DNA of 64,000 nt, taken from Escherichia coli. GTDB taxonomy: Bacteria; Pseudomonadota; Gammaproteobacteria; Enterobacterales; Enterobacteriaceae. The first letter of the stretch is position 1; each line of letters opens with the position of its first letter. The stretch lies in assembly GCF_003018115.1 (NCBI RefSeq), contig NZ_CP027457.1. One strand, 5' to 3'. A program made the position numbers and the translations under genes. Positions 33,716 to 55,486 of the stretch are shown here, piece after piece. Below the pieces are notes generated by a model that was given only the letters and a program-made list of their open reading frames with translations, did no database searches and was not told the DNA's origin.

Positions 33716-34181
33716 GGTTGAATAGCTCCTTGATACGAGAGCGCCGCTTATCGCGATCTCCCTTATCAGGTGTCACGTCTTCAACTTGCGACTGCTCTTT
33801 GAGGCCCAAATCACGGGCGATGATGTTAGCGTTGAGAAGGTCAGCGGCTGCGCCAGAGAATTTCTGGTCGTAGATGACCTGCTCTGCTCGCGTAACGACT
33901 TCAGATAAATCTTCTCGCAGGCGATATGTGCGCCATGTTTCAAGCGTCACATCAATGAACAGAGTGAGGCCGGTGATGGTCATCGCTCGCATCTTGGCGA
34001 TAGGCTCTTGCATCACTTCCCCCTGATACGAGAACGCCTTCATCTCCCATAGCGGGTTAGCTTCCACCCACTCGAAGTATTCACAACAAGCAGCCCACAG
34101 CGCCTCAGGCGATTCGAATTTAGGGTTTCGCCCATGACTACTGCGGGCCTCCCAAAATCGGTTGCCCTTTGGTGCTGCCAT
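33693..34181 (-). CDS. Terminase small subunit, P22 gp3-like
   Basis: 162-aa translation [50 protein letters not shown]... Confidence 0.92.
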
Positions 34182-43526: not shown

Positions 43527-43802
43527 TCAGGCCTCGAAGAATTCGCCGTTCTTCGGGGCTTTTTCTTTTGTCAGCATTCTGGCTACTTTCTTAGCCAGTT
43601 CCGCCAACTCCTCGTCTTCAACACCCCATTCAAGAACAGCCAGAAGCATTCCCATTTTTGGGATGAAGCTGTCTTTCCATCGCGAAATTTGCGATTCATT
43701 AATTCCTAACGCGTCGGCAACCTTTCGCTGGCCACGTACAGCAATTCGATTCAGGATGTTGCTTGTAATTGCATTCGCTTTCTTGCGAGTACTTGTAAGT
43801 TC
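43527..43802 (-). CDS. cII: CII-like transcriptional activator
   Basis: ...GINESQISRWKDSFIPKMGMLLAVLEWGVEDEELAELAKKVARMLT... resembles lambda CII; start approximate. Confidence 0.8.
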   Translation of the reverse strand, partial: ELTSTRKKANAITSNILNRIAVRGQRKVADALGINESQISRWKDSFIPKMGMLLAVLEWGVEDEELAELAKKVARMLTKEKAPKNGEFFEA

Positions 43803-43862
43803 CATATGTAAGTATTTCCTTAACAAATAAGAAGTTATGCGCATCAACTTATGCGCGTTGTA

Positions 43863-43908
43863 TTCCCGCATTTCGGCGGGAATGAGGACCATGACTGTTA
43901 AAGAGCGG
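43863..43908 (-). promoter_or_regulatory. nutR (boxA CGCTCTTTAACA, boxB TTCCCGCCGAAATGCGGGAA)
   Basis: boxA/boxB pair just downstream of cro on the transcribed strand; same boxB as the nutL candidate. Confidence 0.6.
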
Positions 43909-43913
43909 TGTTA

Positions 43914-44108
43914 CTATTTGTTTTTCTTGTTGCTTGGGAAAGGACGAACTTCCTCTCCAATCACACTGCCATCAGGCTTTACCGTAACCATGATGTTACG
44001 GCCTGCCAGAATGGCCTTGCTGATAGCGCACTGGATTACACCAAAGTCACTGGCTGCTTTAGCCTGTCCATGGATTTTGGCGTAATCGGCAAGTGTCATT
44101 CGAATCAT
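43914..44108 (-). CDS. cro: Cro repressor
   Basis: Translation [62 protein letters not shown] resembles lambda Cro; GGAG RBS. Confidence 0.85.
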
Positions 44109-44139
44109 ATGCACTCTCCGTTATTAACCATGAACAAAG

Positions 44140-44214: not shown

Positions 44215-44931
44215 ATGGAAAATAAAAAATCACTGACGACAGAACAGCTCGAAGACGCTAAGCGGCTTAAGGCTTTGTATGAGTCAAAAAAGAAAGAATT
44301 GGGAATAACCCAATACTCAATCGCTGATGAACTGGGTATCACCCAAGGAGCGGTAGGGCATTATCTTAATGGCAGAAACGCGCTAAACGTTGAGGTCGCA
44401 TCTGGTTTTGCACGTTTGTTGCAAGTCTCAATTGCTGATTTTAGCCAGTCAATTGCTGCCAAGGTTGCAGAACAGGCAGAAAGCCTTAAGAGCGATGCCA
44501 ACGTAAGGTATGCAGGGGAATACAGAGCAGGAAAGAGGTATCCGGTGTTAAGCAGTATCCAGGCTGGCTCGTGGTGTGAAGCATGCGAACCATACACCAT
44601 TAAAGACATAGATGTTTGGCTTGAGTCTGACGCGCATATTCAAGGTAATGCGTTCTGGCTTAAAGTGGAAGGTGATTCAATGACGGCACCGGTTGGGTTA
44701 AGCATTCCAGAGGGAACATTCGTTCTTTTCGATACCGGAAGGGAGGCGATCAACGGCAGCTTGGTCATAGCAAAACTTTCTGACTCTAACGAAGCAACAT
44801 TCAAGAAGCTGATAATCGACGGCGGAAATAAATACCTCAAGGGACTTAATCCTGCATGGCCTCTCGTGCCAATCAATGGAAACTGCAAGATTATAGGCGT
44901 TGCAATTGAGACAAAACTAAGGCTGGTTTGA
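44215..44931 (+). CDS. cI: CI repressor (HTH plus LexA-like S24 autocleavage domain)
   Basis: 238 aa; ...LTTEQLEDAKRLKALYESKKKELGITQYSIADELG... and C-terminal ...AFWLKVEGDSMTAP... resemble lambda CI. Confidence 0.9.
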   Translation: MENKKSLTTEQLEDAKRLKALYESKKKELGITQYSIADELGITQGAVGHYLNGRNALNVEVASGFARLLQVSIADFSQSIAAKVAEQAESLKSDANVRYAGEYRAGKRYPVLSSIQAGSWCEACEPYTIKDIDVWLESDAHIQGNAFWLKVEGDSMTAPVGLSIPEGTFVLFDTGREAINGSLVIAKLSDSNEATFKKLIIDGGNKYLKGLNPAWPLVPINGNCKIIGVAIETKLRLV

Positions 44932-44945
44932 TCACGCAAGGGGCG

Positions 44946-45317
44946 ATTATGGTTGGAACCGCTATAGCAAGCTTTTTTGGGATGTTGGCAATCTCGACAA
45001 TTTACGGCTTAGCGCATGCTTTTATTGCGAAATCTCTATCAGAAAAAATAAGCCAGGCTTGGGCGCATAGATCAGCTCGTTTCATGATTCTGGTGATCAT
45101 AGCAATACAAGGGATATCTGCATTTATCCTCTATGGATCAAGCTTATACCTATTGTATCAAGGCGCGACATTTACGCCTTACACCAGTGATTACGGAACT
45201 CTATACGATGGTAGTGAAGACATCACTGTGGCTTGGATCGTCTTTGGTTTATCTATGGCCGTGTCTGTTGTAGCAGACATCATTAAGGTAATTCTCGTCT
45301 TAACCTTCGCTGACTAA
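44946..45317 (+). CDS. Small multi-pass membrane protein in the cI operon (rexAB position); function unknown
   Basis: About 123-aa ORF with 3-4 predicted TM helices beginning just after the cI stop; precedes OL/pL. Confidence 0.55.
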   Translation: MMVGTAIASFFGMLAISTIYGLAHAFIAKSLSEKISQAWAHRSARFMILVIIAIQGISAFILYGSSLYLLYQGATFTPYTSDYGTLYDGSEDITVAWIVFGLSMAVSVVADIIKVILVLTFAD

Positions 45318-45403
45318 CCTATAATCCCGGCAGCAATAGCTATCGGGATCCACTTCACATATCCCGCATAAAAAGCACTGAACAAGCAGACACCGAAAAA
45401 ATA

Positions 45404-45490
45404 AATATCCTTTGTATTCATTTGCTTATCATTATTTCACCAAAAATAAATACCTTGGGTATTTACACAATAAAATACCTACAGTATTCT
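45404..45490 (+). promoter_or_regulatory. Left operator OL1-OL3 and pL promoter
   Basis: AATATCCTTTGTATT (45404-45418), AATACCTTGGGTATT (45449-45463), AATACCTACAGTATT (45474-45488); -35 TTTACA / -10 TATTCT overlapping OL1. Confidence 0.65.
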
Positions 45491-45536
45491 TTAGCCATCA
45501 GCAGGACGCTGGAAGCCAAACGGAACAGATTGGCAG

Positions 45537-45577
45537 GCTCTTTAACATTGATGGGATTGTCCCGCCGAAATGCGGGA
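45537..45577 (+). promoter_or_regulatory. nutL (boxA GCTCTTTAACA, boxB TCCCGCCGAAATGCGGGA)
   Basis: boxA closely matching the rrn-type consensus followed by a hairpin, between pL and N. Confidence 0.6.
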
Positions 45578-45684
45578 ACCAAAGAGTAGTTGGCTTTGGG
45601 GTGACGTGAAGTGCAGCTGCACGACGGCAACCGGAAGATAAGCACCCGGCGCGTCACCGCCAAAGTCAATCATCGGAGGTCAAC

Positions 45685-45990
45685 ATGACAGTAGTCATTA
45701 CATATCTGGCTGACGATAACGCCAGAAATCGCCGCAGAGCACGCAGACAGGCTCAACGTGAACAGGCAATGCAAGAGCAGCGACTGGCGCGAAAAATTGC
45801 GCTAAAGCTCTCTGGTTGCGTCAGGGCAGACAAAGCAGCATCACTCGGAAGCCTTCGCTGCCAGAAGGCAGAAGAAGTCGAGCGTAAACAGAACCGTATT
45901 TACTACCGCAAGCCACGCAGTGAAATGGGTGTGACATGCTCAGGCCGCCAGAAGCAACGCGGAAAATCAATTCCAGCTTATTACGATTGA
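45685..45990 (+). CDS. N: N antitermination protein
   Basis: Arginine-rich motif NARNRRRARRQAQRE near the N-terminus; C-terminus ...GVTCSGRQKQRGKSIP resembles lambda N. Confidence 0.8.
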   Translation: MTVVITYLADDNARNRRRARRQAQREQAMQEQRLARKIALKLSGCVRADKAASLGSLRCQKAEEVERKQNRIYYRKPRSEMGVTCSGRQKQRGKSIPAYYD

Positions 45991-45998
45991 GGTTAATG

Positions 45999-46265
45999 AT
46001 GAAATTCAAATTGAACGATGAAGTTAAATGGTCTAGCTCATCAAACGGTGTAACGAAGGTAAAAATCGGGTTTATCGTTGAGGTGATTCCTCCTGGTGTC
46101 AACGTAAAAAAATTCGAACTAGGCCGTCTGCTAGATGCACCTGGCCTTCCGAGGAAAGAAGAGAGCTATATAGTTTGTGTAGGTCCAAGACCAGGATCTC
46201 GTGCCAAGCCAAAATATTACTGGCCGCGAGTTAATAACCTGCGTCGCTTACACGATGACAAATAG
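45999..46265 (+). CDS. Hypothetical early protein
   Basis: About 88-aa ORF immediately after N. Confidence 0.4.
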   Translation: MKFKLNDEVKWSSSSNGVTKVKIGFIVEVIPPGVNVKKFELGRLLDAPGLPRKEESYIVCVGPRPGSRAKPKYYWPRVNNLRRLHDDK

Positions 46266-46320
46266 AAGTGAGTATCCTTGTTTTACTTTTTCGCAGCAAA
46301 CCACTTATTTGAGGTGAGAT

Positions 46321-46572
46321 ATGGAATTTCATGAAAGTGCGATTTGTGATTTTCGCGCTAACGCAAATTCAGTAAAACCACAGCCAATTGCAGTTCTTTT
46401 TAAAACAATGGGTGCGTGGGCTGTTTTATGCTTCGCCGCTGATGACACTGACGCAAGAATGGCAATAGGCCAAGAGATGGAGATGGACCCGACAAACGAT
46501 GAATTCATAATTTATGGCGCTCCATCTAATTACTTACTTGATACCTGCAACATTTACAACAAGGCTGCCTGA
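46321..46572 (+). CDS. Hypothetical early protein
   Basis: 83-aa ORF. Confidence 0.4.
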   Translation: MEFHESAICDFRANANSVKPQPIAVLFKTMGAWAVLCFAADDTDARMAIGQEMEMDPTNDEFIIYGAPSNYLLDTCNIYNKAA

Positions 46573-46611
46573 TGGTGGCCTTTATTTTTGGCATAAACAA
46601 CAGAGGCTAAC

Positions 46612-46908
46612 ATGGAATTTAAAGGTACTAAAGGTAAGTGGGAAATAATGATTGATGGCGATGAGATTAAAATCATCCAGGCAGACTCACTTGAAAATGG
46701 CGCAGGCTGGCGTTCGTATATTGCAATCTGTGAGGAAGTTCAATGCATTGAAGATGCCAATCTAATAGCGGCAGCGCCTGACCTTCTCGAAGCACTTCAG
46801 TTATTACTTAAGCAAACCAAAAATAGAACAACGACAACATATCCAGAATGGTATGGAGCTGTTAATAAAGGTATCGCAGCAATCAGAAAAGCTCTTGGGG
46901 ATAAGTAA
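46612..46908 (+). CDS. Hypothetical early protein
   Basis: 98-aa ORF. Confidence 0.4.
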   Translation: MEFKGTKGKWEIMIDGDEIKIIQADSLENGAGWRSYIAICEEVQCIEDANLIAAAPDLLEALQLLLKQTKNRTTTTYPEWYGAVNKGIAAIRKALGDK

Positions 46909-47096
46909 TGAAAGTAAAAATAACTGCTTCTAATACCAGTTTTGTTAGTGTTGGTGATATTACAGAAGTAATAACAAACCATGATGGAACACAAGTTATG
47001 TGGTCTGATTTTTGTAAAAGATATGAGCGAGTCACTTGGTGTAAACTCGTATGGGGAGTCGAATACGAAGAATTACCTGAAATGCATGACGAATAA
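46908..47096 (+). CDS. Hypothetical early protein
   Basis: 62-aa ORF translationally coupled to the preceding gene. Confidence 0.35.
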   Translation: MKVKITASNTSFVSVGDITEVITNHDGTQVMWSDFCKRYERVTWCKLVWGVEYEELPEMHDE

Positions 47097-47281
47097 GCAC
47101 TGTGTATTCATTCCAACGAGTGAATACACGGAGCAATGTTGCTCGTAACTAAACAGGAGCCGACTTGTTCTGATTATTGGAAATCTTCTTTGCCCTCCAG
47201 TGTGAGGGCTTTTTTATATGCATACCAATAACGCTTCACTCGAGGCGTTTTCGTTATGCAATCAAACAGAAGGAGCATCCT

Positions 47282-47452
47282 ATGCAACAGTTCGCTATTG
47301 CAGGGGCGGCATCGGTTCGCCCTTTCAACCCGATTTTATCGGTACAGCATTCACGAAAAAACATTCTAACCGGAGCAGACTTTAAACAACCAAGAATGAA
47401 AAGTTTGCTCGAAAAGCTTTGGGATATTTTGAAACAACAAGGCCGCCCATGA
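47282..47452 (+). CDS. cIII: CIII-like protein (FtsH inhibitor)
   Basis: Translation MQQFAIAGAASVRPF...KSLLEKLWDILKQQGRP resembles lambda CIII; AAGGAG RBS. Confidence 0.7.
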   Translation: MQQFAIAGAASVRPFNPILSVQHSRKNILTGADFKQPRMKSLLEKLWDILKQQGRP

Positions 47453-47533
47453 GTTTTACAGATAGCTGGTCAGACGAAGAATTCATTCGTCAGATGAACA
47501 AAATGCTCAATCAGCACAAAGAACAGGAGAAAG

Positions 47534-47845
47534 ATGATGATTCTGACTCTGAATGATAAGCGTGAAATATCGCAAATAATCGCAAGTTTTACTGATGAAG
47601 ATTACGAACGAATCAACAGTGAAGTTGATCGCCTCTGCAAACGTTGCGACCCAATAAGCGAAATGCTTCGATCATATAAACCAGATGAACACACTAAGGA
47701 CGCTATCGACTGGCTGGAAGATGATGACTGTAACTATCAGGAAAAAGCCGCTGAATGGTTCTGGGATGCAATAACCGAAAGAGTTAAGGCTGAATATGCC
47801 TTCGCAATATTCAAACGCAGACATATTTATGGAGAAGCTGCATGA
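47534..47845 (+). CDS. Hypothetical protein upstream of recT (possible Abc2/Kil-like function)
   Basis: 103-aa acidic ORF; position analogous to anti-RecBCD/kil genes in P22 and lambda; no direct motif evidence. Confidence 0.4.
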   Translation: MMILTLNDKREISQIIASFTDEDYERINSEVDRLCKRCDPISEMLRSYKPDEHTKDAIDWLEDDDCNYQEKAAEWFWDAITERVKAEYAFAIFKRRHIYGEAA

Positions 47846-49991: not shown

Positions 49992-50468
49992 ATGAAACTA
50001 ATGTCACTAATTGAGATGGATGGTTTTCTGAAAGGTAAATGCATCCCACGAGATTTAAAGGTTAACGAAACAAACGCTGAATATCTGGTGCGTAAGTTCG
50101 GTGAGCTTGAATCAAAACTGGAAACGGCGTTGCGGGAGTGTCGTTCTGCTGGAATCACGATTGATAACCTTGAGGCTAAATGCGCGAAGATGGCTGCTGA
50201 AAATACCTCGCTTAAGCAATCTGAGAAGGAATTTAATGACTTTTGTCGTGAGGAGTTTAGCGAATGGGAAGATGATGTTACTGAACCCCAAGCCACCGAT
50301 GCTTTCCTGGCTGAAGTCCGGGCTAAGGCGTTTGATGACCTTTGCGCGGCGTTCGTTAAGCACGCGTCGGTGTCCGGGCTGGACGATGGCGACTGCGTTA
50401 CGGTGAAAGAGGCGACTGACGCCCTGCTGCATTGTGCGGAACAGCTTCACGAGGGAGTGCATTCATGA
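49992..50468 (+). CDS. Hypothetical coiled-coil protein
   Basis: About 158-aa ORF from [16 protein letters not shown]... Confidence 0.4.
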
Positions 50469-50707
50469 GCAACCTACTACCATGTCCATTCTGTGGCGGC
50501 GCAGCGCACGTTGCCAGCGAAGCAGATCACCCTGAATATGGCTCTGGCGGTCGATTCTATTTCGTTCGATGCGGTACGTGTCGCGCTCAATCTGGTAGCA
50601 AATATGCAGCGCCTGGAAATGACTGCGCGATTTTTTATTCAGAGGTTAGAGCAGAGTGGAATCAGCGAGCAAAGGAGGCAACCAGTGAGCGGAAAAAGAA
50701 TGACTAA
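50465..50707 (+). CDS. lar: Lar-family restriction alleviation protein
   Basis: Translation [16 protein letters not shown]...FVRCGTCRAQ... with the CPFCGG zinc motif typical of Lar. Confidence 0.65.
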   Translation: MSNLLPCPFCGGAAHVASEADHPEYGSGGRFYFVRCGTCRAQSGSKYAAPGNDCAIFYSEVRAEWNQRAKEATSERKKND

Positions 50708-50909
50708 CAGAGAGCTTGTTGATGCCGCCATTAAGCTTGCTGGTGATTTTTATTCAATGATGGGGTACACGCATCGCCCAGGCTTCAAATATTGGGAGTC
50801 TCCGCACCCGCAAGAGCAACTGGTATTTCAAATGGCCTGCCGTGCTTTTGAGGTTATTCGCGGTTCTGATGTGATGGACGCCGTTGCCGACTTGGAGGAT
50901 GAAGAGTGA
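50700..50909 (+). CDS. Hypothetical protein
   Basis: About 69-aa ORF MTNRELVDAAIKLAGDFYSMMGY...; start approximate. Confidence 0.35.
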   Translation: MTNRELVDAAIKLAGDFYSMMGYTHRPGFKYWESPHPQEQLVFQMACRAFEVIRGSDVMDAVADLEDEE

Positions 50910-51358
50910 GCAAGATTGACTATCAGGCACTGCGTGAAAAGGCAGAGAAAGCAACGTGTGGGGTGTGGTCGCTCGAATATGGAGAGGAGAGATTTGATGC
51001 TGATGATGCGCTAATTCATCGTGAAGTTGTTGGATATCTTCCCATTTGCAGAATTGAAGGAGCGCATCCAGAAAGCGGTTTCGATGAAGATTTCCAAATG
51101 GAACAGCAGGCCAATGCTGAATTCATCGCCGCAGCCAATCCAGCTACCGTGCTGGCGCTGCTGGATGAGCTGGAAGCCAAAGACAAGCGGATTGCTGACA
51201 TGGAGGCGCGGGAGGTTGTACTGCCGCGTGCGCACGATGTTCACCCATTAGGGCCGCAGGCGGCGAAAATTTTTTGTGAGTTTCACCGGAGTATCGTGAA
51301 CAGATGCGCCGATGAGATTCGCAAGGTTGGCATCAAAGTCAGCATCAAGGGGAATTAG
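50906..51358 (+). CDS. Ead/Ea22-like protein
   Basis: 150 aa; ...QANAEFIAAANPATVLALLDELEAKDKRIADMEA... typical of Ea22-family early proteins. Confidence 0.55.
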   Translation: MSKIDYQALREKAEKATCGVWSLEYGEERFDADDALIHREVVGYLPICRIEGAHPESGFDEDFQMEQQANAEFIAAANPATVLALLDELEAKDKRIADMEAREVVLPRAHDVHPLGPQAAKIFCEFHRSIVNRCADEIRKVGIKVSIKGN

Positions 51359-51362
51359 GGAT

Positions 51363-51896
51363 ATGGCTGAACTAACCAAAGAATGGCTGAAGCAAACTAT
51401 CGCTGAATACGAAGCCAATCGTGATGAATTACCGTTTGGACTGGATACCAACAGTGCCATTGGGCTTCAGGCGTTCAAGTTGGCGCTGGCATCGCTGGAA
51501 GCAGAGCCGGTGGCGTGGGAGGTAACCTTCACGCAAATTGACCGTGAATATAACACGTTCACTGGTATGTATCCTGACAAAGCAGAAGTCGAACGGTGGG
51601 TGCGTCTGCATAAAGCATGTAATTTTCGGGCAGATATAACACCGCTTTATACCGCCAAGCCAGTGCCGGTAACTCCGGATGGTTGGATAAGCTGTAGTGA
51701 GCGAATGCCGGAAAAGAATCAGAACGTGCTTATTTCGGTGAATTTCGATAGCTCTCTGGTTGAACCGCTAATATGCTCCGCACGCTATACAGGAAGCACA
51801 TTCCGGCGAGGGGAAGCAACGATTAAGCCGGGTAATGGTATTGAGCAGGCAACTCACTGGATGCCGCTACCAGAACCGCCGCAGGAGGCGAAATGA
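51363..51896 (+). CDS. DUF551 domain protein
   Basis: C-terminal ...WISCSERMPEKNQNVLI...THWMPLPEPP resembles DUF551. Confidence 0.5.
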   Translation: MAELTKEWLKQTIAEYEANRDELPFGLDTNSAIGLQAFKLALASLEAEPVAWEVTFTQIDREYNTFTGMYPDKAEVERWVRLHKACNFRADITPLYTAKPVPVTPDGWISCSERMPEKNQNVLISVNFDSSLVEPLICSARYTGSTFRRGEATIKPGNGIEQATHWMPLPEPPQEAK

Positions 51897-52801: not shown

Positions 52802-53020
52802 ATGTACTTGACACTTCAGGAGTGGAACGCACGCCAGCGACGCCCAAGAAGCCTTGAAACAGTTCGTCGATGGGTGCGCGAATGCAGGATATTCCCACCA
52901 CCGGTTAAGGATGGAAGAGAGTATCTGTTCCACGAATCAGCGGTAAAGGTTGACTTAAATCGACCAGTAACAGGTAGCCTTTTGAAGAGGATCAGAAATG
53001 GGAAGAAGGCGAAGTCATGA
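52802..53020 (+). CDS. xis: Excisionase Xis (lambda-type)
   Basis: 72-aa translation MYLTLQEWNARQRRPRSLETVRRWVRECRIFPPPVKDGREYLFHESAVKVDL... matches lambda Xis. Confidence 0.95.
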   Translation: MYLTLQEWNARQRRPRSLETVRRWVRECRIFPPPVKDGREYLFHESAVKVDLNRPVTGSLLKRIRNGKKAKS

Positions 53021-54068
53021 GCGCCGGGATTTACCCCCTAACCTTTATATAAGAAACAATGGATATTACTGCTACAGGGACCCAAGGACGGGTAAAGAGT
53101 TCGGATTAGGCAGAGACAGGAGGATAGCAATCACTGAAGCTATACAGGCCAACATTGAGTTATTTTCAGGACACAAACACAAGCCTCTGACAGCGAGAAT
53201 CAACAGTGATAATTCTGTTACGTTACATTCATGGCTTGATCGCTACGAAAAAATCCTCGCCAGCAGAGGAATCAAGCAGAAGACACTCATAAATTACATG
53301 AGCAAAATTAAAGCAATAAGGAGGGGGCTGCCTGATGTTCCACTTGAAGACATCACCACAAAAGAAATTGCGGCAATGCTCAATGGATACATAGACGAGG
53401 GCAAGGCGGCATCAGCCAAGTTAATCAGATCAACACTGAGCGATGCATTCCGAGAGGCTATAGCTGAAGGCCATATAACAACAAACCCGGTCGCTGCTAC
53501 TCGCGCAGCAAAATCAGAGGTAAGGAGATCAAGGCTTACGGCTGACGAATACCTGAAAATTTATCAAGCAGCAGAATCATCACCATGTTGGTTAAGACTT
53601 GCAATGGAACTGGCTGTTGTTACCGGACAGCGAGTTGGTGATTTATGCGAAATGAAGTGGTCTGATATCGTAGATGGATATCTTTATGTCGAGCAAAGCA
53701 AAACAGGCGTAAAAATTGCCATCCCAACAGCATTGCATGTTGATGCTCTCGGAATATCAATGAAGGAAACACTTGATAAATGCAAAGAGATTCTTGGCGG
53801 AGAAACCATAATTGCATCTACTCGTCGTGAACCGCTTTCATCCGGCACAGTATCAAGGTATTTTATGCGCGCACGAAAAGCATCAGGTCTTTCCTTCGAA
53901 GGGGATCCGCCTACCTTTCACGAGTTGCGCAGTTTGTCTGCAAGACTCTATGAGAAGCAGATAAGCGATAAGTTTGCTCAACATCTTCTCGGGCATAAGT
54001 CGGACACCATGGCATCACAGTATCGTGATGACAGAGGCAGGGAGTGGGACAAAATTGAAATCAAATAA
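52998..54068 (+). CDS. int: Integrase Int (tyrosine recombinase, lambda-type)
   Basis: 356-aa translation MGRRRSHERRDLPPNLYIRNNGYYCYRDPRTGKEFGLGRDRRIAITEAIQANIELF... matches lambda Int. Confidence 0.97.
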   Translation: MGRRRSHERRDLPPNLYIRNNGYYCYRDPRTGKEFGLGRDRRIAITEAIQANIELFSGHKHKPLTARINSDNSVTLHSWLDRYEKILASRGIKQKTLINYMSKIKAIRRGLPDVPLEDITTKEIAAMLNGYIDEGKAASAKLIRSTLSDAFREAIAEGHITTNPVAATRAAKSEVRRSRLTADEYLKIYQAAESSPCWLRLAMELAVVTGQRVGDLCEMKWSDIVDGYLYVEQSKTGVKIAIPTALHVDALGISMKETLDKCKEILGGETIIASTRREPLSSGTVSRYFMRARKASGLSFEGDPPTFHELRSLSARLYEKQISDKFAQHLLGHKSDTMASQYRDDRGREWDKIEIK

Positions 54069-54202: not shown

Positions 54203-55486
54203 GTGAACACATTTTCAGTTTCCCGTCTGGCGCTGGCATTGGCTTTTGGCGTGACGCTGACCGCCTGTAGCTCAACACCACCCGATCAACGTCCTTCTGA
54301 TCAAACTGCGCCTGGTACCTCTTCTCGCCCGATTCTGTCGGCAAAAGAAGCGCAGAATTTCGATGCTCAACACTATTATGCATCCCTGACACCAGGTGCT
54401 GCAGCGTGGAATCCGTCCCCGATAACCCTGCCTGCGCAACCTGACTTTGTTGTCGGCCCGGCGGGTACTCAAGGTGTAACGCATACCACGATTCAGGCGG
54501 CGGTAGATGCGGCAATTATCAAGCGCACCAACAAGCGCCAGTATATTGCCGTGATGCCTGGTGAGTATCAGGGAACGGTGTATGTCCCTGCTGCTCCAGG
54601 TGGAATTACTCTGTACGGTACAGGTGAAAAACCGATTGATGTGAAGATTGGGCTTTCCCTTGATGGGGGCATGAGCCCTGCCGACTGGCGTCACGACGTC
54701 AACCCGCGCGGCAAATATATGCCAGGTAAACCAGCGTGGTATATGTACGATAGCTGCCAGCGCAAACGCAGCGACAGTATCGGTGTTCTGTGTTCTGCGG
54801 TCTTCTGGTCACAAAACAATGGCCTGCAACTGCAAAATCTGACCATCGAAAACACGCTGGGCGATAGCGTAGATGCAGGTAACCATCCGGCGGTGGCACT
54901 GCGTACTGACGGTGACCAGGTACAGATTAACAACGTTAACATTCTCGGTCGTCAGAACACCTTCTTTGTCACCAACAGCGGTGTGCAGAACCGTCTGGAA
55001 ACGAATCGTCAGCCGCGTACGCTGGTGACCAACAGCTACATTGAAGGGGATGTGGATATCGTTTCTGGTCGCGGCGCAGTGGTGTTCGATAACACCGAAT
55101 TCCGCGTGGTGAACTCACGTACTCAGCAAGAAGCGTATGTGTTTGCACCGGCTACGCTGTCCAACATCTATTACGGTTTCCTCGCCGTAAACAGCCGTTT
55201 CAATGCTTCCGGTGATGGCGTGGCGCAACTGGGCCGCTCGCTGGATGTTGATGCCAATACCAACGGTCAGGTGGTGATCCGTGATAGCGCCATCAACGAA
55301 GGTTTTAACACGGTTAAACCGTGGGGCGATGCGGTGATCTCTAATCGTCCGTTTGCGGGTAATACCGGCAGCGTTGACGATAGCGACGAAATACAGCGCA
55401 ATCTGAATGACACTAACTACAACCGCATGTGGGAATACAATAACCGCGGCGTGGGTAGCAAAGTGGTTGCAGAGGCGAAGAAGTAA
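54203..55486 (+). CDS. ybhC: Pectinesterase-like outer membrane lipoprotein YbhC
   Basis: 427 aa; signal peptide plus lipobox LTAC; right-handed beta-helix-like repeats. Confidence 0.85.
   Translation: MNTFSVSRLALALAFGVTLTACSSTPPDQRPSDQTAPGTSSRPILSAKEAQNFDAQHYYASLTPGAAAWNPSPITLPAQPDFVVGPAGTQGVTHTTIQAAVDAAIIKRTNKRQYIAVMPGEYQGTVYVPAAPGGITLYGTGEKPIDVKIGLSLDGGMSPADWRHDVNPRGKYMPGKPAWYMYDSCQRKRSDSIGVLCSAVFWSQNNGLQLQNLTIENTLGDSVDAGNHPAVALRTDGDQVQINNVNILGRQNTFFVTNSGVQNRLETNRQPRTLVTNSYIEGDVDIVSGRGAVVFDNTEFRVVNSRTQQEAYVFAPATLSNIYYGFLAVNSRFNASGDGVAQLGRSLDVDANTNGQVVIRDSAINEGFNTVKPWGDAVISNRPFAGNTGSVDDSDEIQRNLNDTNYNRMWEYNNRGVGSKVVAEAKK

What the first reader, a model, noticed from the sequence alone, without database searches (positions are those of the whole stretch)
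45999..47096. Four consecutive small ORFs between N and cIII with no assignable function
The pL operon immediately after N encodes four proteins of about 88, 83, 98 and 62 aa before cIII. In lambda the equivalent interval holds accessory genes such as ral, sieB and ea10, which deal with host restriction and exclusion. None of these ORFs resembles those by eye, so they are unassigned early cargo.
Basis: inference. Interest (0 to 1): 0.35.

Follow-up and report, generated by a model that had tools for sequence, protein, structure and literature searches.

The report
Four uncharacterised early genes in lambdoid prophage
Four small genes between the N and cIII genes of a lambda-like E. coli prophage are real, conserved and independently shuffled accessory genes whose functions are still unknown, which is the ordinary state of this variable part of lambdoid phage genomes.

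Summary
Four same-strand ORFs of 88, 83, 98 and 62 aa lie at 45999-47096, between an N-like gene and cIII. All four are genuine genes: each has a Shine-Dalgarno sequence, dN/dS is 0.03-0.25 against diverged relatives, and each falls in its own PHROG family of unknown function. None matches Pfam, NCBIfam, PADLOC, PDB sequences, or lambda Ral, SieB or Ea10.

New details:
- **ORF1:** a basic Tudor/SH3-like small beta-barrel, absent from all deposited phage genomes and often unannotated in RefSeq.
- **ORF2:** 100% identical to hypothetical protein H0090 of Stx2 phage VT2-Sakai. It sits in lambda's ral slot, sharing ral's last codons and downstream hairpin, and never co-occurs with ral.
- **ORF3:** a confidently modelled beta-plus-three-helix fold with no solved analogue. 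It is a probable remote relative of the N-terminal module of Ead/Ea22-like proteins.
- **ORF4:** start overlaps the ORF3 stop. Its domain recurs in T4-like Krischvirus early proteins.

The four genes assort independently but keep a fixed order. They are best read as separate early accessory cassettes, probably small binding proteins that act on the host or its defences. Interest is low to moderate.

The parts
45462..45490 (+). sigma-70 promoter-like site in the gap between the rex-position ORF and N; candidate pL
   Evidence: TTTACA-17-TATTCT, 9 of 12 matches. The number of such sites in the region is not above the shuffle expectation, so this is positional inference only.
45685..45990 (+). 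N-like antiterminator gene, the upstream boundary of the finding
   Evidence: PHROG 271, E=7e-36. Weak Pfam N_peptide match. 64% identity to the lambda N C-terminus over 33 aa.
45999..46265 (+). ORF1: 88 aa (89 aa from the ATG at 45996), basic (pI 10.0), Tudor/SH3-like small beta-barrel with invariant KPKYYWPR motif
46321..46572 (+). ORF2: 83 aa, acidic (pI 4.2); identical to VT2-Sakai H0090; alternative occupant of the lambda ral slot
   Evidence: phrog_2471; 100% identity.
46556..46604 (+). Junction J1: 94% identical to lambda 34103-34055, that is the last 5 codons of ral plus the downstream spacer. Contains a terminator-like hairpin at 46561-46582 followed by TTTATTTTT
   Evidence: -13.9 kcal/mol, z -2.3. 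A terminator is annotated under the ORF2 match in phage mEp234.
46612..46908 (+). ORF3: 98 aa; 5-strand beta region plus 3 helices; motifs FKGTxGxW, NAxLIAAAPDLLEALQ and AIxKALG; probable remote relative of the Ead/Ea22 N-terminal module
   Evidence: phrog_1273; pLDDT 96.
46908..47096 (+). ORF4: 62 aa, acidic; its start overlaps the ORF3 stop (TAATG); the domain also forms the C-terminus of a 144-aa Krischvirus protein
   Evidence: phrog_10407, phrog_16117; an ORF3-family gene lies directly upstream in 42 of 57 loci.
47097..47220 (+). Junction J2: 97% identical to lambda 34045-33920 (the ral-ea10 spacer). Contains the terminator-like hairpin GCCCTC..GAGGGC plus T6 at 47192-47209
47220..47305 (+). 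Junction J3: 79% identical to lambda 33522-33443 (the ea10-cIII spacer and the start of cIII). Contains a hairpin at 47230-47249. The ea10 gene is missing
   Evidence: the two hairpins fold together at -27.5 kcal/mol, z -5.3.
47282..47452 (+). cIII, the downstream boundary of the finding
   Evidence: PHROG 550, E=1e-22.

Best explanation
**Shown.** The interval holds four separate, genuine protein-coding accessory cassettes in the hypervariable N-cIII segment of the early-left (pL) operon of a lambda-like E. coli prophage. They were assembled by recombination at short conserved junction sequences. ORF2 replaces ral in the same slot. ORF3-ORF4 is inserted into the ral-ea10 spacer. ea10 is absent. 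ORF1 is wedged 8 nt after N. The genes keep a fixed order (N, ORF1, ORF2 or ral, ORF3, ORF4, ea10 if present, cIII), but any subset can be present.

**Inferred.**
- All four are made only during infection or induction, from pL.
- ORF1 and ORF2 lie before the first terminator-like hairpin, so they would be co-transcribed with N. ORF3 and ORF4 lie behind it and would need N antitermination.
- None carries conserved catalytic-type residues, so each most likely acts by binding a partner. They would be dispensable modulators of host or host-defence functions.
- Per gene: ORF1 is a basic, aromatic-rich Tudor/SH3-like barrel that probably binds nucleic acid or a transcription-related protein. ORF2 is an acidic protein at the ral position and is the best candidate for an anti-restriction or anti-defence factor. 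ORF3 is a free-standing version of the module found at the N-terminus of Ead/Ea22-like proteins. ORF4 is an optional partner translationally coupled to ORF3.
For: - **Real genes:** Shine-Dalgarno sites; dN/dS 0.03-0.25; dedicated PHROG families.
- **Position and order:** conserved across about 260 IMG/VR and RefSeq loci, with every subset seen.
- **Junction identities to lambda:**
- **ral slot:** the J1 junction is preceded only by ORF2-type or Ral-type genes in 98 occurrences. ORF2 and ral co-occur in 0 of 80 ORF2 loci and 0 of 13 ral loci.
- **Transcription signals:** hairpins after ORF2 and before cIII, and no significant structure between N and ORF2.
- **No catalytic signature:** the conserved positions in ORF3 are T, G, W, A, L, I, P and K. 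ORF1's invariant block is basic and aromatic.
- **Folds:** ORF1 is Tudor/SH3-like. ORF3 is a confident model with no solved analogue.
- **ORF3 and Ead/Ea22:** hhalign probability 86%, against 7.5% or less for all control pairs.
- **Relatives in virulent phages:** the ORF3 N-terminal half occurs in ~145-kb Klebsiella/Cronobacter/Salmonella phages and ORF4 in Krischvirus. This argues for a host-directed role rather than one specific to lysogeny.
- **Nature of the interval:** in other E. coli prophages it carries Ral, SieB, Nun-like, Nmad5, DUF2528 and TolA-like cargo.
Against: - No function was demonstrated for any of the four, and no homologue has an experimental phenotype in the searched literature.
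- Sharing a slot with ral may reflect only recombination at a conserved junction. ORF2 is acidic with no cysteine cluster, whereas Ral is slightly basic with a Cys-rich motif. A shared mechanism is therefore not implied.
- ORF2 and ORF3 are essentially absent from plasmids, unlike the widespread anti-restriction genes.
- The ORF3-Ead link is below Pfam's threshold, and the Ead profile used was shallow (Neff 1.6).
- The promoter and terminator assignments are consensus-level only.
Confidence: 0.6

Rival explanations
1. Some or all of the ORFs modulate the lysis-lysogeny decision, like cIII, Ea22, Orf63 and Ea8.5, rather than countering host defences.
For: ORF3 shows probable remote homology to the N-terminal module of Ead/Ea22-like proteins. 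Ea22 is reported to favour lysogeny, by an unknown mechanism (PMC10834534, PMC7093339). The ORFs sit immediately upstream of cIII and kil in the same operon.
Against: ORF3 and ORF4 relatives occur in virulent Klebsiella/Cronobacter myoviruses and in T4-like Krischvirus, which make no lysogeny decision. ORF3 lacks the coiled-coil and C-terminal domain of Ea22.
Confidence: 0.2
2. The ORFs are prophage-encoded superinfection-exclusion or anti-phage defence genes that protect the lysogen, as SieB and RexAB do.
For: Lambda carries sieB in the equivalent interval, and HK140 carries a SieB-like gene there. The N-cIII region is a known site for such cargo.
Against: All four ORFs lie on the pL strand downstream of N, with no promoter signal above the shuffle expectation, so they should be repressed in a lysogen. 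They have no PADLOC match and no transmembrane segments, unlike SieB. Relatives occur in virulent phages.
Confidence: 0.1
3. The four ORFs, or at least ORF3 plus ORF4, form one multi-component system such as a toxin-antitoxin pair or a complex.
For: The ORF3 stop and ORF4 start overlap (TAATG). An ORF3-family gene lies immediately upstream of ORF4 in 42 of 57 loci. In 11 more loci the upstream gene is a 46-aa ORF that shares ORF3's ...ALGDK ending.
Against: No sampled locus other than the window holds all four. Among the IMG/VR loci sampled, ORF1 and ORF2 never co-occur (0 of 46 and 0 of 80); only the window and RefSeq CP127004 carry both. Most ORF3-family genes lack ORF4. No conserved neighbour exists for distant ORF3 relatives. 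No toxin-antitoxin or other family match was found. In Krischvirus the ORF4 domain is fused to an unrelated N-terminus, not to an ORF3-like one.
Confidence: 0.08
4. The ORFs are chance open frames or decayed pseudogenes in a non-coding spacer.
For: ORF1 carries no RefSeq annotation in most E. coli genomes that hold it, and it has no match in 50,697 deposited phage genomes.
Against: The frames are intact in dozens to hundreds of loci, with dN/dS well below 1, strong Shine-Dalgarno sites, family-wide invariant motifs and confident fold predictions.
Confidence: 0.02

Closest known systems
Lambda ral (restriction alleviation) gene and its slot in the pL operon
   Same: ORF2 lies at the same position. 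It shares ral's last codons (NNKAA in ral, YNKAA in ORF2) and the same downstream hairpin and spacer, 94% identical to lambda 34103-34055. The two are mutually exclusive in all sampled loci, and either one is followed by ORF3 in many phages.
   Different: There is no sequence similarity (profile score of -0.8 bits). ORF2 is 83 aa and acidic with no Cys cluster. Ral is 66 aa with a Cys-rich motif. No anti-restriction activity is known for ORF2.
Ead/Ea22-like proteins (Pfam PF13935) of the lambdoid exo-xis region
   Same: The ORF3 family profile aligns to the N-terminal module of the window's own Ead/Ea22-like protein (50906-51358). GTxGxW aligns with ATCGVW, and NAxLIAAAP..LLEAL with NAEFIAAANP..LLDEL. 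hhalign probability is 86% and E=5e-6, with controls at 7.5% or less. Both are early pL-operon genes.
   Different: ORF3 does not reach the Pfam model, and none of 78 family members matched it at E<=0.1. ORF3 is a 98-aa stand-alone domain without the coiled-coil or the variable C-terminal domain. The mechanism of Ea22 itself is unknown (PMC10834534).
Hypothetical protein H0090 of Stx2 phage VT2-Sakai, and its copies in other Stx phages, HK633 and mEp234
   Same: 100% identical to ORF2 and in the same place, directly downstream of N.
   Different: Nothing differs, since it is the same gene. In Stx phages it is followed by ea10. Here it is preceded by ORF1 and followed by ORF3-ORF4.
Tudor / SH3-like small beta-barrel domains (Tudor, PWWP, chromo, KOW, the PcrA C-terminal Tudor domain)
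Hyperplastic early-gene arrays of T4-like Krischvirus (JSE/RB49 group)
   Same: A 144-aa JSE protein carries an ORF4-like C-terminal domain, 55-59% identical over 54 aa. It lies in a run of small same-strand hypothetical early genes.
   Different: In JSE the domain is fused to an unrelated N-terminal region, and the phage is virulent.

Membership tests
Ral (lambda restriction alleviation protein) | Sequence homology to Ral | tested here: not met
   Profiles A1-A4 searched with hmmsearch --max against lambda Ral gave 2.2 bits or less. The PHROG scan assigns the ORFs to other families.
Ral (lambda restriction alleviation protein) | Genomic position between N and ea10/cIII, followed by the conserved KAA-stop-hairpin junction | tested here: met
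   Met for ORF2 only.
Ral (lambda restriction alleviation protein) | Alleviation of type I restriction of unmodified DNA | not testable with these tools
   Requires plating assays.
SieB superinfection exclusion | Sequence homology, a membrane segment, and opposite-strand orientation next to N | tested here: not met
   No similarity. All four ORFs are on the pL strand.
Ea10 | Sequence homology to lambda Ea10 | tested here: not met
   The DNA comparison shows ea10 is absent: window 47220 joins lambda 33920 to 33522.
Ead/Ea22-like (Pfam PF13935) | Match to the Pfam model above its gathering score | tested here: not met
   No hit for ORF3 at E<=1, nor for any of 78 family members at E<=0.1. The window's own Ead protein scores 79.7 bits.
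Ead/Ea22-like (Pfam PF13935) | Remote profile-profile similarity to the N-terminal module | tested here: inconclusive
   hhalign probability 66-86%, E=5e-6, over 52-72 columns, with controls at 7.5% or less. The Ead profile was shallow.
Ead/Ea22-like (Pfam PF13935) | Architecture of N-terminal segment, long coiled coil and variable C-terminal domain | tested here: not met
   ORF3 is a compact 98-aa single domain.
Tudor/SH3-like small beta-barrel fold | Five-stranded small barrel superposable on known members | tested here: met
Known anti-phage defence systems (PADLOC-DB) | Match to any defence-protein model | tested here: not met
   No families at E<=1 for all four ORFs.
Toxin-antitoxin pair (ORF3/ORF4) | Two small overlapping genes that always co-occur, plus a match to a known toxin or antitoxin family | tested here: not met
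   The overlap is present, but co-occurrence is partial and there is no family match.
Lambdoid pL-operon accessory cargo | Same strand as pL and downstream of N; variable presence between otherwise syntenic phages; flanked by conserved junctions; dispensable | tested here: met
   Strand, synteny, variable presence and junctions are shown. Dispensability is inferred from presence/absence polymorphism and was not tested directly.

The most novel reading that the evidence does not exclude
ORF2 (identical to H0090 of Stx2 phage VT2-Sakai) is a previously unrecognised anti-restriction or anti-defence protein. It would functionally replace Ral in Stx-converting and other lambdoid phages. It would be made together with N in the immediate-early transcript, before antitermination. 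A secondary, less likely reading is that ORF1, a basic Tudor-like barrel always fused to the end of the N gene, is a cofactor that acts on the transcription machinery or on nut-site RNA.
Probability: 0.2. Interest if true: 0.55.

Novelty: new member of a known kind. Interest (0 to 1): 0.25.

Why it matters
If any of these small proteins proves to be an anti-defence or host-takeover factor, it would add to the catalogue of phage counter-defence genes. ORF2 is the best candidate. It is carried unchanged by clinically important Stx2 phages at the position where lambda keeps its anti-restriction gene. The ORF3 family is widespread (133 clusters at 50% identity, in loci of 34-69% GC) and has a confidently predicted fold with no solved analogue. 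It may also shed light on the unexplained N-terminal module of Ea22-type proteins. As things stand, however, the finding documents ordinary mosaic cargo of unknown function, not a new kind of system.

Tried and rejected
- **Family scans.** Pfam, NCBIfam and PADLOC scans of the four proteins gave nothing. Scans of 78 ORF3-family members also gave nothing.
- **PDB sequence searches.** Single-sequence searches for ORF1 and ORF3 and profile searches for all four families gave nothing below E=0.06.
- **RNA families.** The Rfam scan of 44900-47700 returned only one weak hit (SCARNA7, E=0.58, far below its gathering score), so a non-coding RNA explanation was rejected.
- **The RefSeq name.** 'XkdD/Y8K6 family phage-associated protein' is attached to one ORF3 homologue. 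It could not be traced to any NCBIfam model or any paper.
- **Literature.** Searches for the PHROG ids, L0079/H0090 and lambdoid anti-defence screens found no functional data. The supplement of the accessory-gene screen PMC12373910 holds none of these sequences.
- **ORF3-ORF4 fusion.** The idea that ORF4-containing longer proteins are ORF3-ORF4 fusions was tested and rejected.
- **Conserved neighbours.** Distant ORF3 relatives have no conserved neighbour gene.
- **Plasmid carriage.** This would have suggested a general anti-restriction role. Both ORF2 and ORF3 are essentially absent from plasmids.
- **CUS-3 'bsq5'.** The 'bsq5' boundary sequence annotated in phage CUS-3 lies between cI and N, so it is not relevant to these junctions.

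Full report
**1. What is there**

The window carries a lambda-like prophage whose early-left operon runs on the + strand.
- Gene order: cII (43527-43892, -), cro (43914-44114, -), cI (44215-44931, +), a 129-aa ORF in the rex position (44928-45317, +), then a 367-nt gap containing a promoter-like site (45462-45490).
- An N-like gene follows at 45685-45990 (PHROG 271, E=7e-36).
- Then come the four ORFs of the finding: 45999-46265 (88 aa), 46321-46572 (83 aa), 46612-46908 (98 aa) and 46908-47096 (62 aa).
- Downstream lie cIII (47282-47452; PHROG 550, E=1e-22), a kil-like peptide, a 103-aa ORF, RecT and a Gp157-family gene.

**2. Are they genes?**

- Each ORF has a Shine-Dalgarno sequence at the right distance from its start.
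- Each belongs to its own PHROG family, all of unknown function: 11941, 2471, 1273 and 10407.
- Codon-level comparison with homologues from about 350 fetched loci gives dN/dS of 0.03-0.08 (ORF1), 0.14 (ORF2), 0.14 (ORF3) and 0.22-0.24 (ORF4) at high divergence.
- The family alignments show invariant motifs.

They are real genes under purifying selection.

**3. Homology to known proteins**

- Nothing was found in Pfam, NCBIfam or PADLOC, or by sequence or profile search of the PDB.
- Profiles of the four families score 2.2 bits or less against lambda Ral, SieB, Ea10 and orf28.

**4. Anatomy relative to lambda**

Three short stretches of the interval are lambda DNA:

| Window | Lambda | Identity | What it is in lambda |
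|---|---|---|---|
| 46556-46604 | 34103-34055 | 94% | last five codons of ral plus its downstream hairpin |
| 47097-47220 | 34045-33920 | 97% | ral-ea10 spacer |
| 47220-47305 | 33522-33443 | 79% | ea10-cIII spacer and the start of cIII |

- ORF2 therefore ends in ral's tail (YNKAA against NNKAA).
- The ORF3-ORF4 block is inserted between lambda positions 34055 and 34045.
- ea10 is cleanly absent.
- Across all fetched loci, the 34-nt junction after ORF2 is preceded only by an ORF2-type or a Ral-type gene (98 occurrences).
- ORF2 and ral never co-occur: 0 of 80 ORF2 loci and 0 of 13 ral loci.
- Either one is followed by ORF3 at the same spacing. ORF2 is thus an alternative occupant of the ral slot.

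**5. Mosaic behaviour**

- In about 260 IMG/VR and RefSeq loci the order N, ORF1, ORF2 or ral, ORF3, ORF4, (ea10), cIII, kil is invariant, but any subset can be present.
- No other sampled locus has all four.
- Only one of 5,426 complete E. coli genomes covers 80% or more of the 2-kb region. It is CP127004, which has ORF1, ORF2 and ORF3.
- ORF1 and ORF2 do not co-occur in any IMG/VR locus sampled.
- ORF1 occurs in 49 of 5,426 genomes. The ORF3-ORF4 cassette occurs nearly whole in 59.
- Other prophages carry Ral, SieB-like, Nun-like, Nmad5, DUF2528 or TolA-like genes in this interval.

This is the classic picture of independently exchanged accessory cassettes.

**6. Transcription signals**

- A hairpin with a T-run overlaps the ORF2 stop: 46561-46582, -13.9 kcal/mol, z -2.3. 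It is the lambda post-ral hairpin, and a terminator is annotated under the ORF2 match in mEp234.
- Two more hairpins precede cIII at 47192-47209 and 47230-47249. Together they fold at -27.5 kcal/mol, z -5.3.
- No significant structure lies between N and ORF1 (an 8-nt gap) or between ORF1 and ORF2.

By inference, ORF1 and ORF2 would be co-transcribed with N. ORF3, ORF4 and cIII would require N-dependent read-through. From memory, and unverified here, the two downstream hairpins correspond to members of lambda's tL2 terminator cluster.

**7. The individual proteins**

*ORF1*
- Basic (pI 10.0), with an invariant C-terminal block EESYIVCVGPxPGSRAKPKYYWPR.
- The family is confined to Enterobacterales prophages and always lies next to N.
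- It has no match in 50,697 deposited phage genomes and is unannotated in most RefSeq genomes that carry it.

*ORF2*
- Acidic (pI 4.2).
- 100% identical to hypothetical protein H0090 of Stx2 phage VT2-Sakai.
- Present in 56 deposited phages, including many Stx phages, HK633 and mEp234.

*ORF3*
- Belongs to a large, diverse family: 133 clusters at 50% identity, in loci of 34-69% GC.
- Motifs are FKGTxGxW, NAxLIAAAPDLLEALQ and AIxKALG.
- The model is very confident (pLDDT 96): a five-strand beta region followed by three helices.
- It has no solved analogue, and only uncharacterised viral proteins match it in BFVD.
- Its profile aligns with the N-terminal module of the window's own Ead/Ea22-like protein (50906-51358; PF13935 at 79.7 bits). 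hhalign probability is 86% and E=5e-6, while all control pairs score 7.5% or less.
- Ea22 is reported to favour lysogeny, but its mechanism is unknown (PMC10834534).
- Distant ORF3 relatives have no conserved neighbour. The N-terminal half also occurs in ~145-kb Klebsiella, Cronobacter, Salmonella and Proteus phages.

*ORF4*
- Its start overlaps the ORF3 stop (TAATG).
- An ORF3-family gene lies directly upstream in 42 of 57 ORF4 loci. In 11 more, the upstream gene is a 46-aa ORF that shares the ...ALGDK ending.
- Its domain recurs at 55-59% identity as the C-terminus of a 144-aa protein in T4-like Krischvirus early-gene arrays. There the N-terminus is not ORF3-like.

**8. Interpretation**

*Shown:* these are four real, independent accessory cassettes in the pL operon, assembled at conserved junctions.

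*Inferred:*
- They are expressed only in lytic growth or induction.
- They lack catalytic signatures and most likely act by binding host, defence or transcription components.

ORF2's allelic relation to ral makes it the best anti-restriction or anti-defence candidate. However, slot sharing may be purely recombinational, its chemistry differs from Ral's, and it is absent from plasmids.

Rivals, with rough weights:
- Lysis-lysogeny modulators: plausible for ORF3 (about 0.2).
- Lysogen-protecting exclusion genes: about 0.1.
- A single multi-gene system: about 0.08.
- Spurious ORFs: refuted.

**9. Verdict**

This is ordinary lambdoid mosaic cargo of unknown function. Points of modest added interest are the ral-slot allelism of ORF2/H0090, the fold of the ORF3 family and its possible Ead/Ea22 link, and the under-annotated ORF1. 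Interest is 0.25. Novelty: new members of a known kind.

Noticed in passing
window 44928-45317 (+): A 129-aa hydrophobic ORF, apparently with several membrane segments, starts 4 nt before the cI stop. It is in the position of lambda rexA/rexB and has no Pfam match. It co-occurs with this cI type in many loci ('tm129'). It is a candidate exclusion or immunity-region cargo expressed in the lysogen.
   Followed up: partly
window 50432-50707 (+): A 91-aa ORF matches Pfam Lar_restr_allev (PF14354, E=1.9e-9). The prophage may therefore already carry a restriction-alleviation gene in its exo-xis region, separate from the ral slot.
   Followed up: partly
window 50906-51358 (+) and 51312-51896 (+): An Ead/Ea22-like protein (PF13935, 79.7 bits) is followed by an overlapping DUF551 protein. 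The first served as the comparison partner for ORF3.
   Followed up: yes
window 45996-46268, and 49 E. coli genomes: ORF1 carries no RefSeq (PGAP) annotation in at least 16 of the 25 genomes listed, although the frame is intact at 97-98% identity. Only a variant with a different 3' end is annotated as 'hypothetical protein'. ORF1 also has no tblastn match in any of 50,697 deposited phage genomes.
   Followed up: partly
loci L294, L299, L306, L309, L312, L319, L322, L324, L325, L328, L331 (just upstream of position ~4001): In loci where ORF4 lacks an ORF3 neighbour, a 46-aa ORF (MNMNAVEFTKWMAEQDITGADEK...AANALGDK) takes its place. It has the same stop/start overlap and a similar ...ALGDK ending. 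This is another alternative allele sharing a junction.
   Followed up: partly
window 52998-54068 (+) and 54203-55486 (+): A 356-aa tyrosine integrase resembles lambda Int by eye. Directly downstream is a probable host gene for a 427-aa lipoprotein-like protein, which from memory resembles ybhC. If so, the prophage sits at the lambda attachment site of E. coli. Neither identification was checked with a tool.
   Followed up: no
window 47282-47452; L001, L003 and L004 (WP_001183771.1): RefSeq annotates the cIII homologue here only as 'hypothetical protein' in several genomes, although it matches the cIII PHROG at E=1e-22.
   Followed up: no
L001 3805-4101 (NZ_CP127004.1, WP_317579456.1): One ORF3 homologue (93% identical) is named 'XkdD/Y8K6 family phage-associated protein' in RefSeq. 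No NCBIfam model or paper supporting that name could be found.
   Followed up: partly
window 45936-45998: The ORF1 reading frame is open from an upstream ATG at 45936 that overlaps the 3' end of N (a 109-aa version). Homologue N-termini and the Shine-Dalgarno position argue for the 45996 or 45999 start instead.
   Followed up: yes
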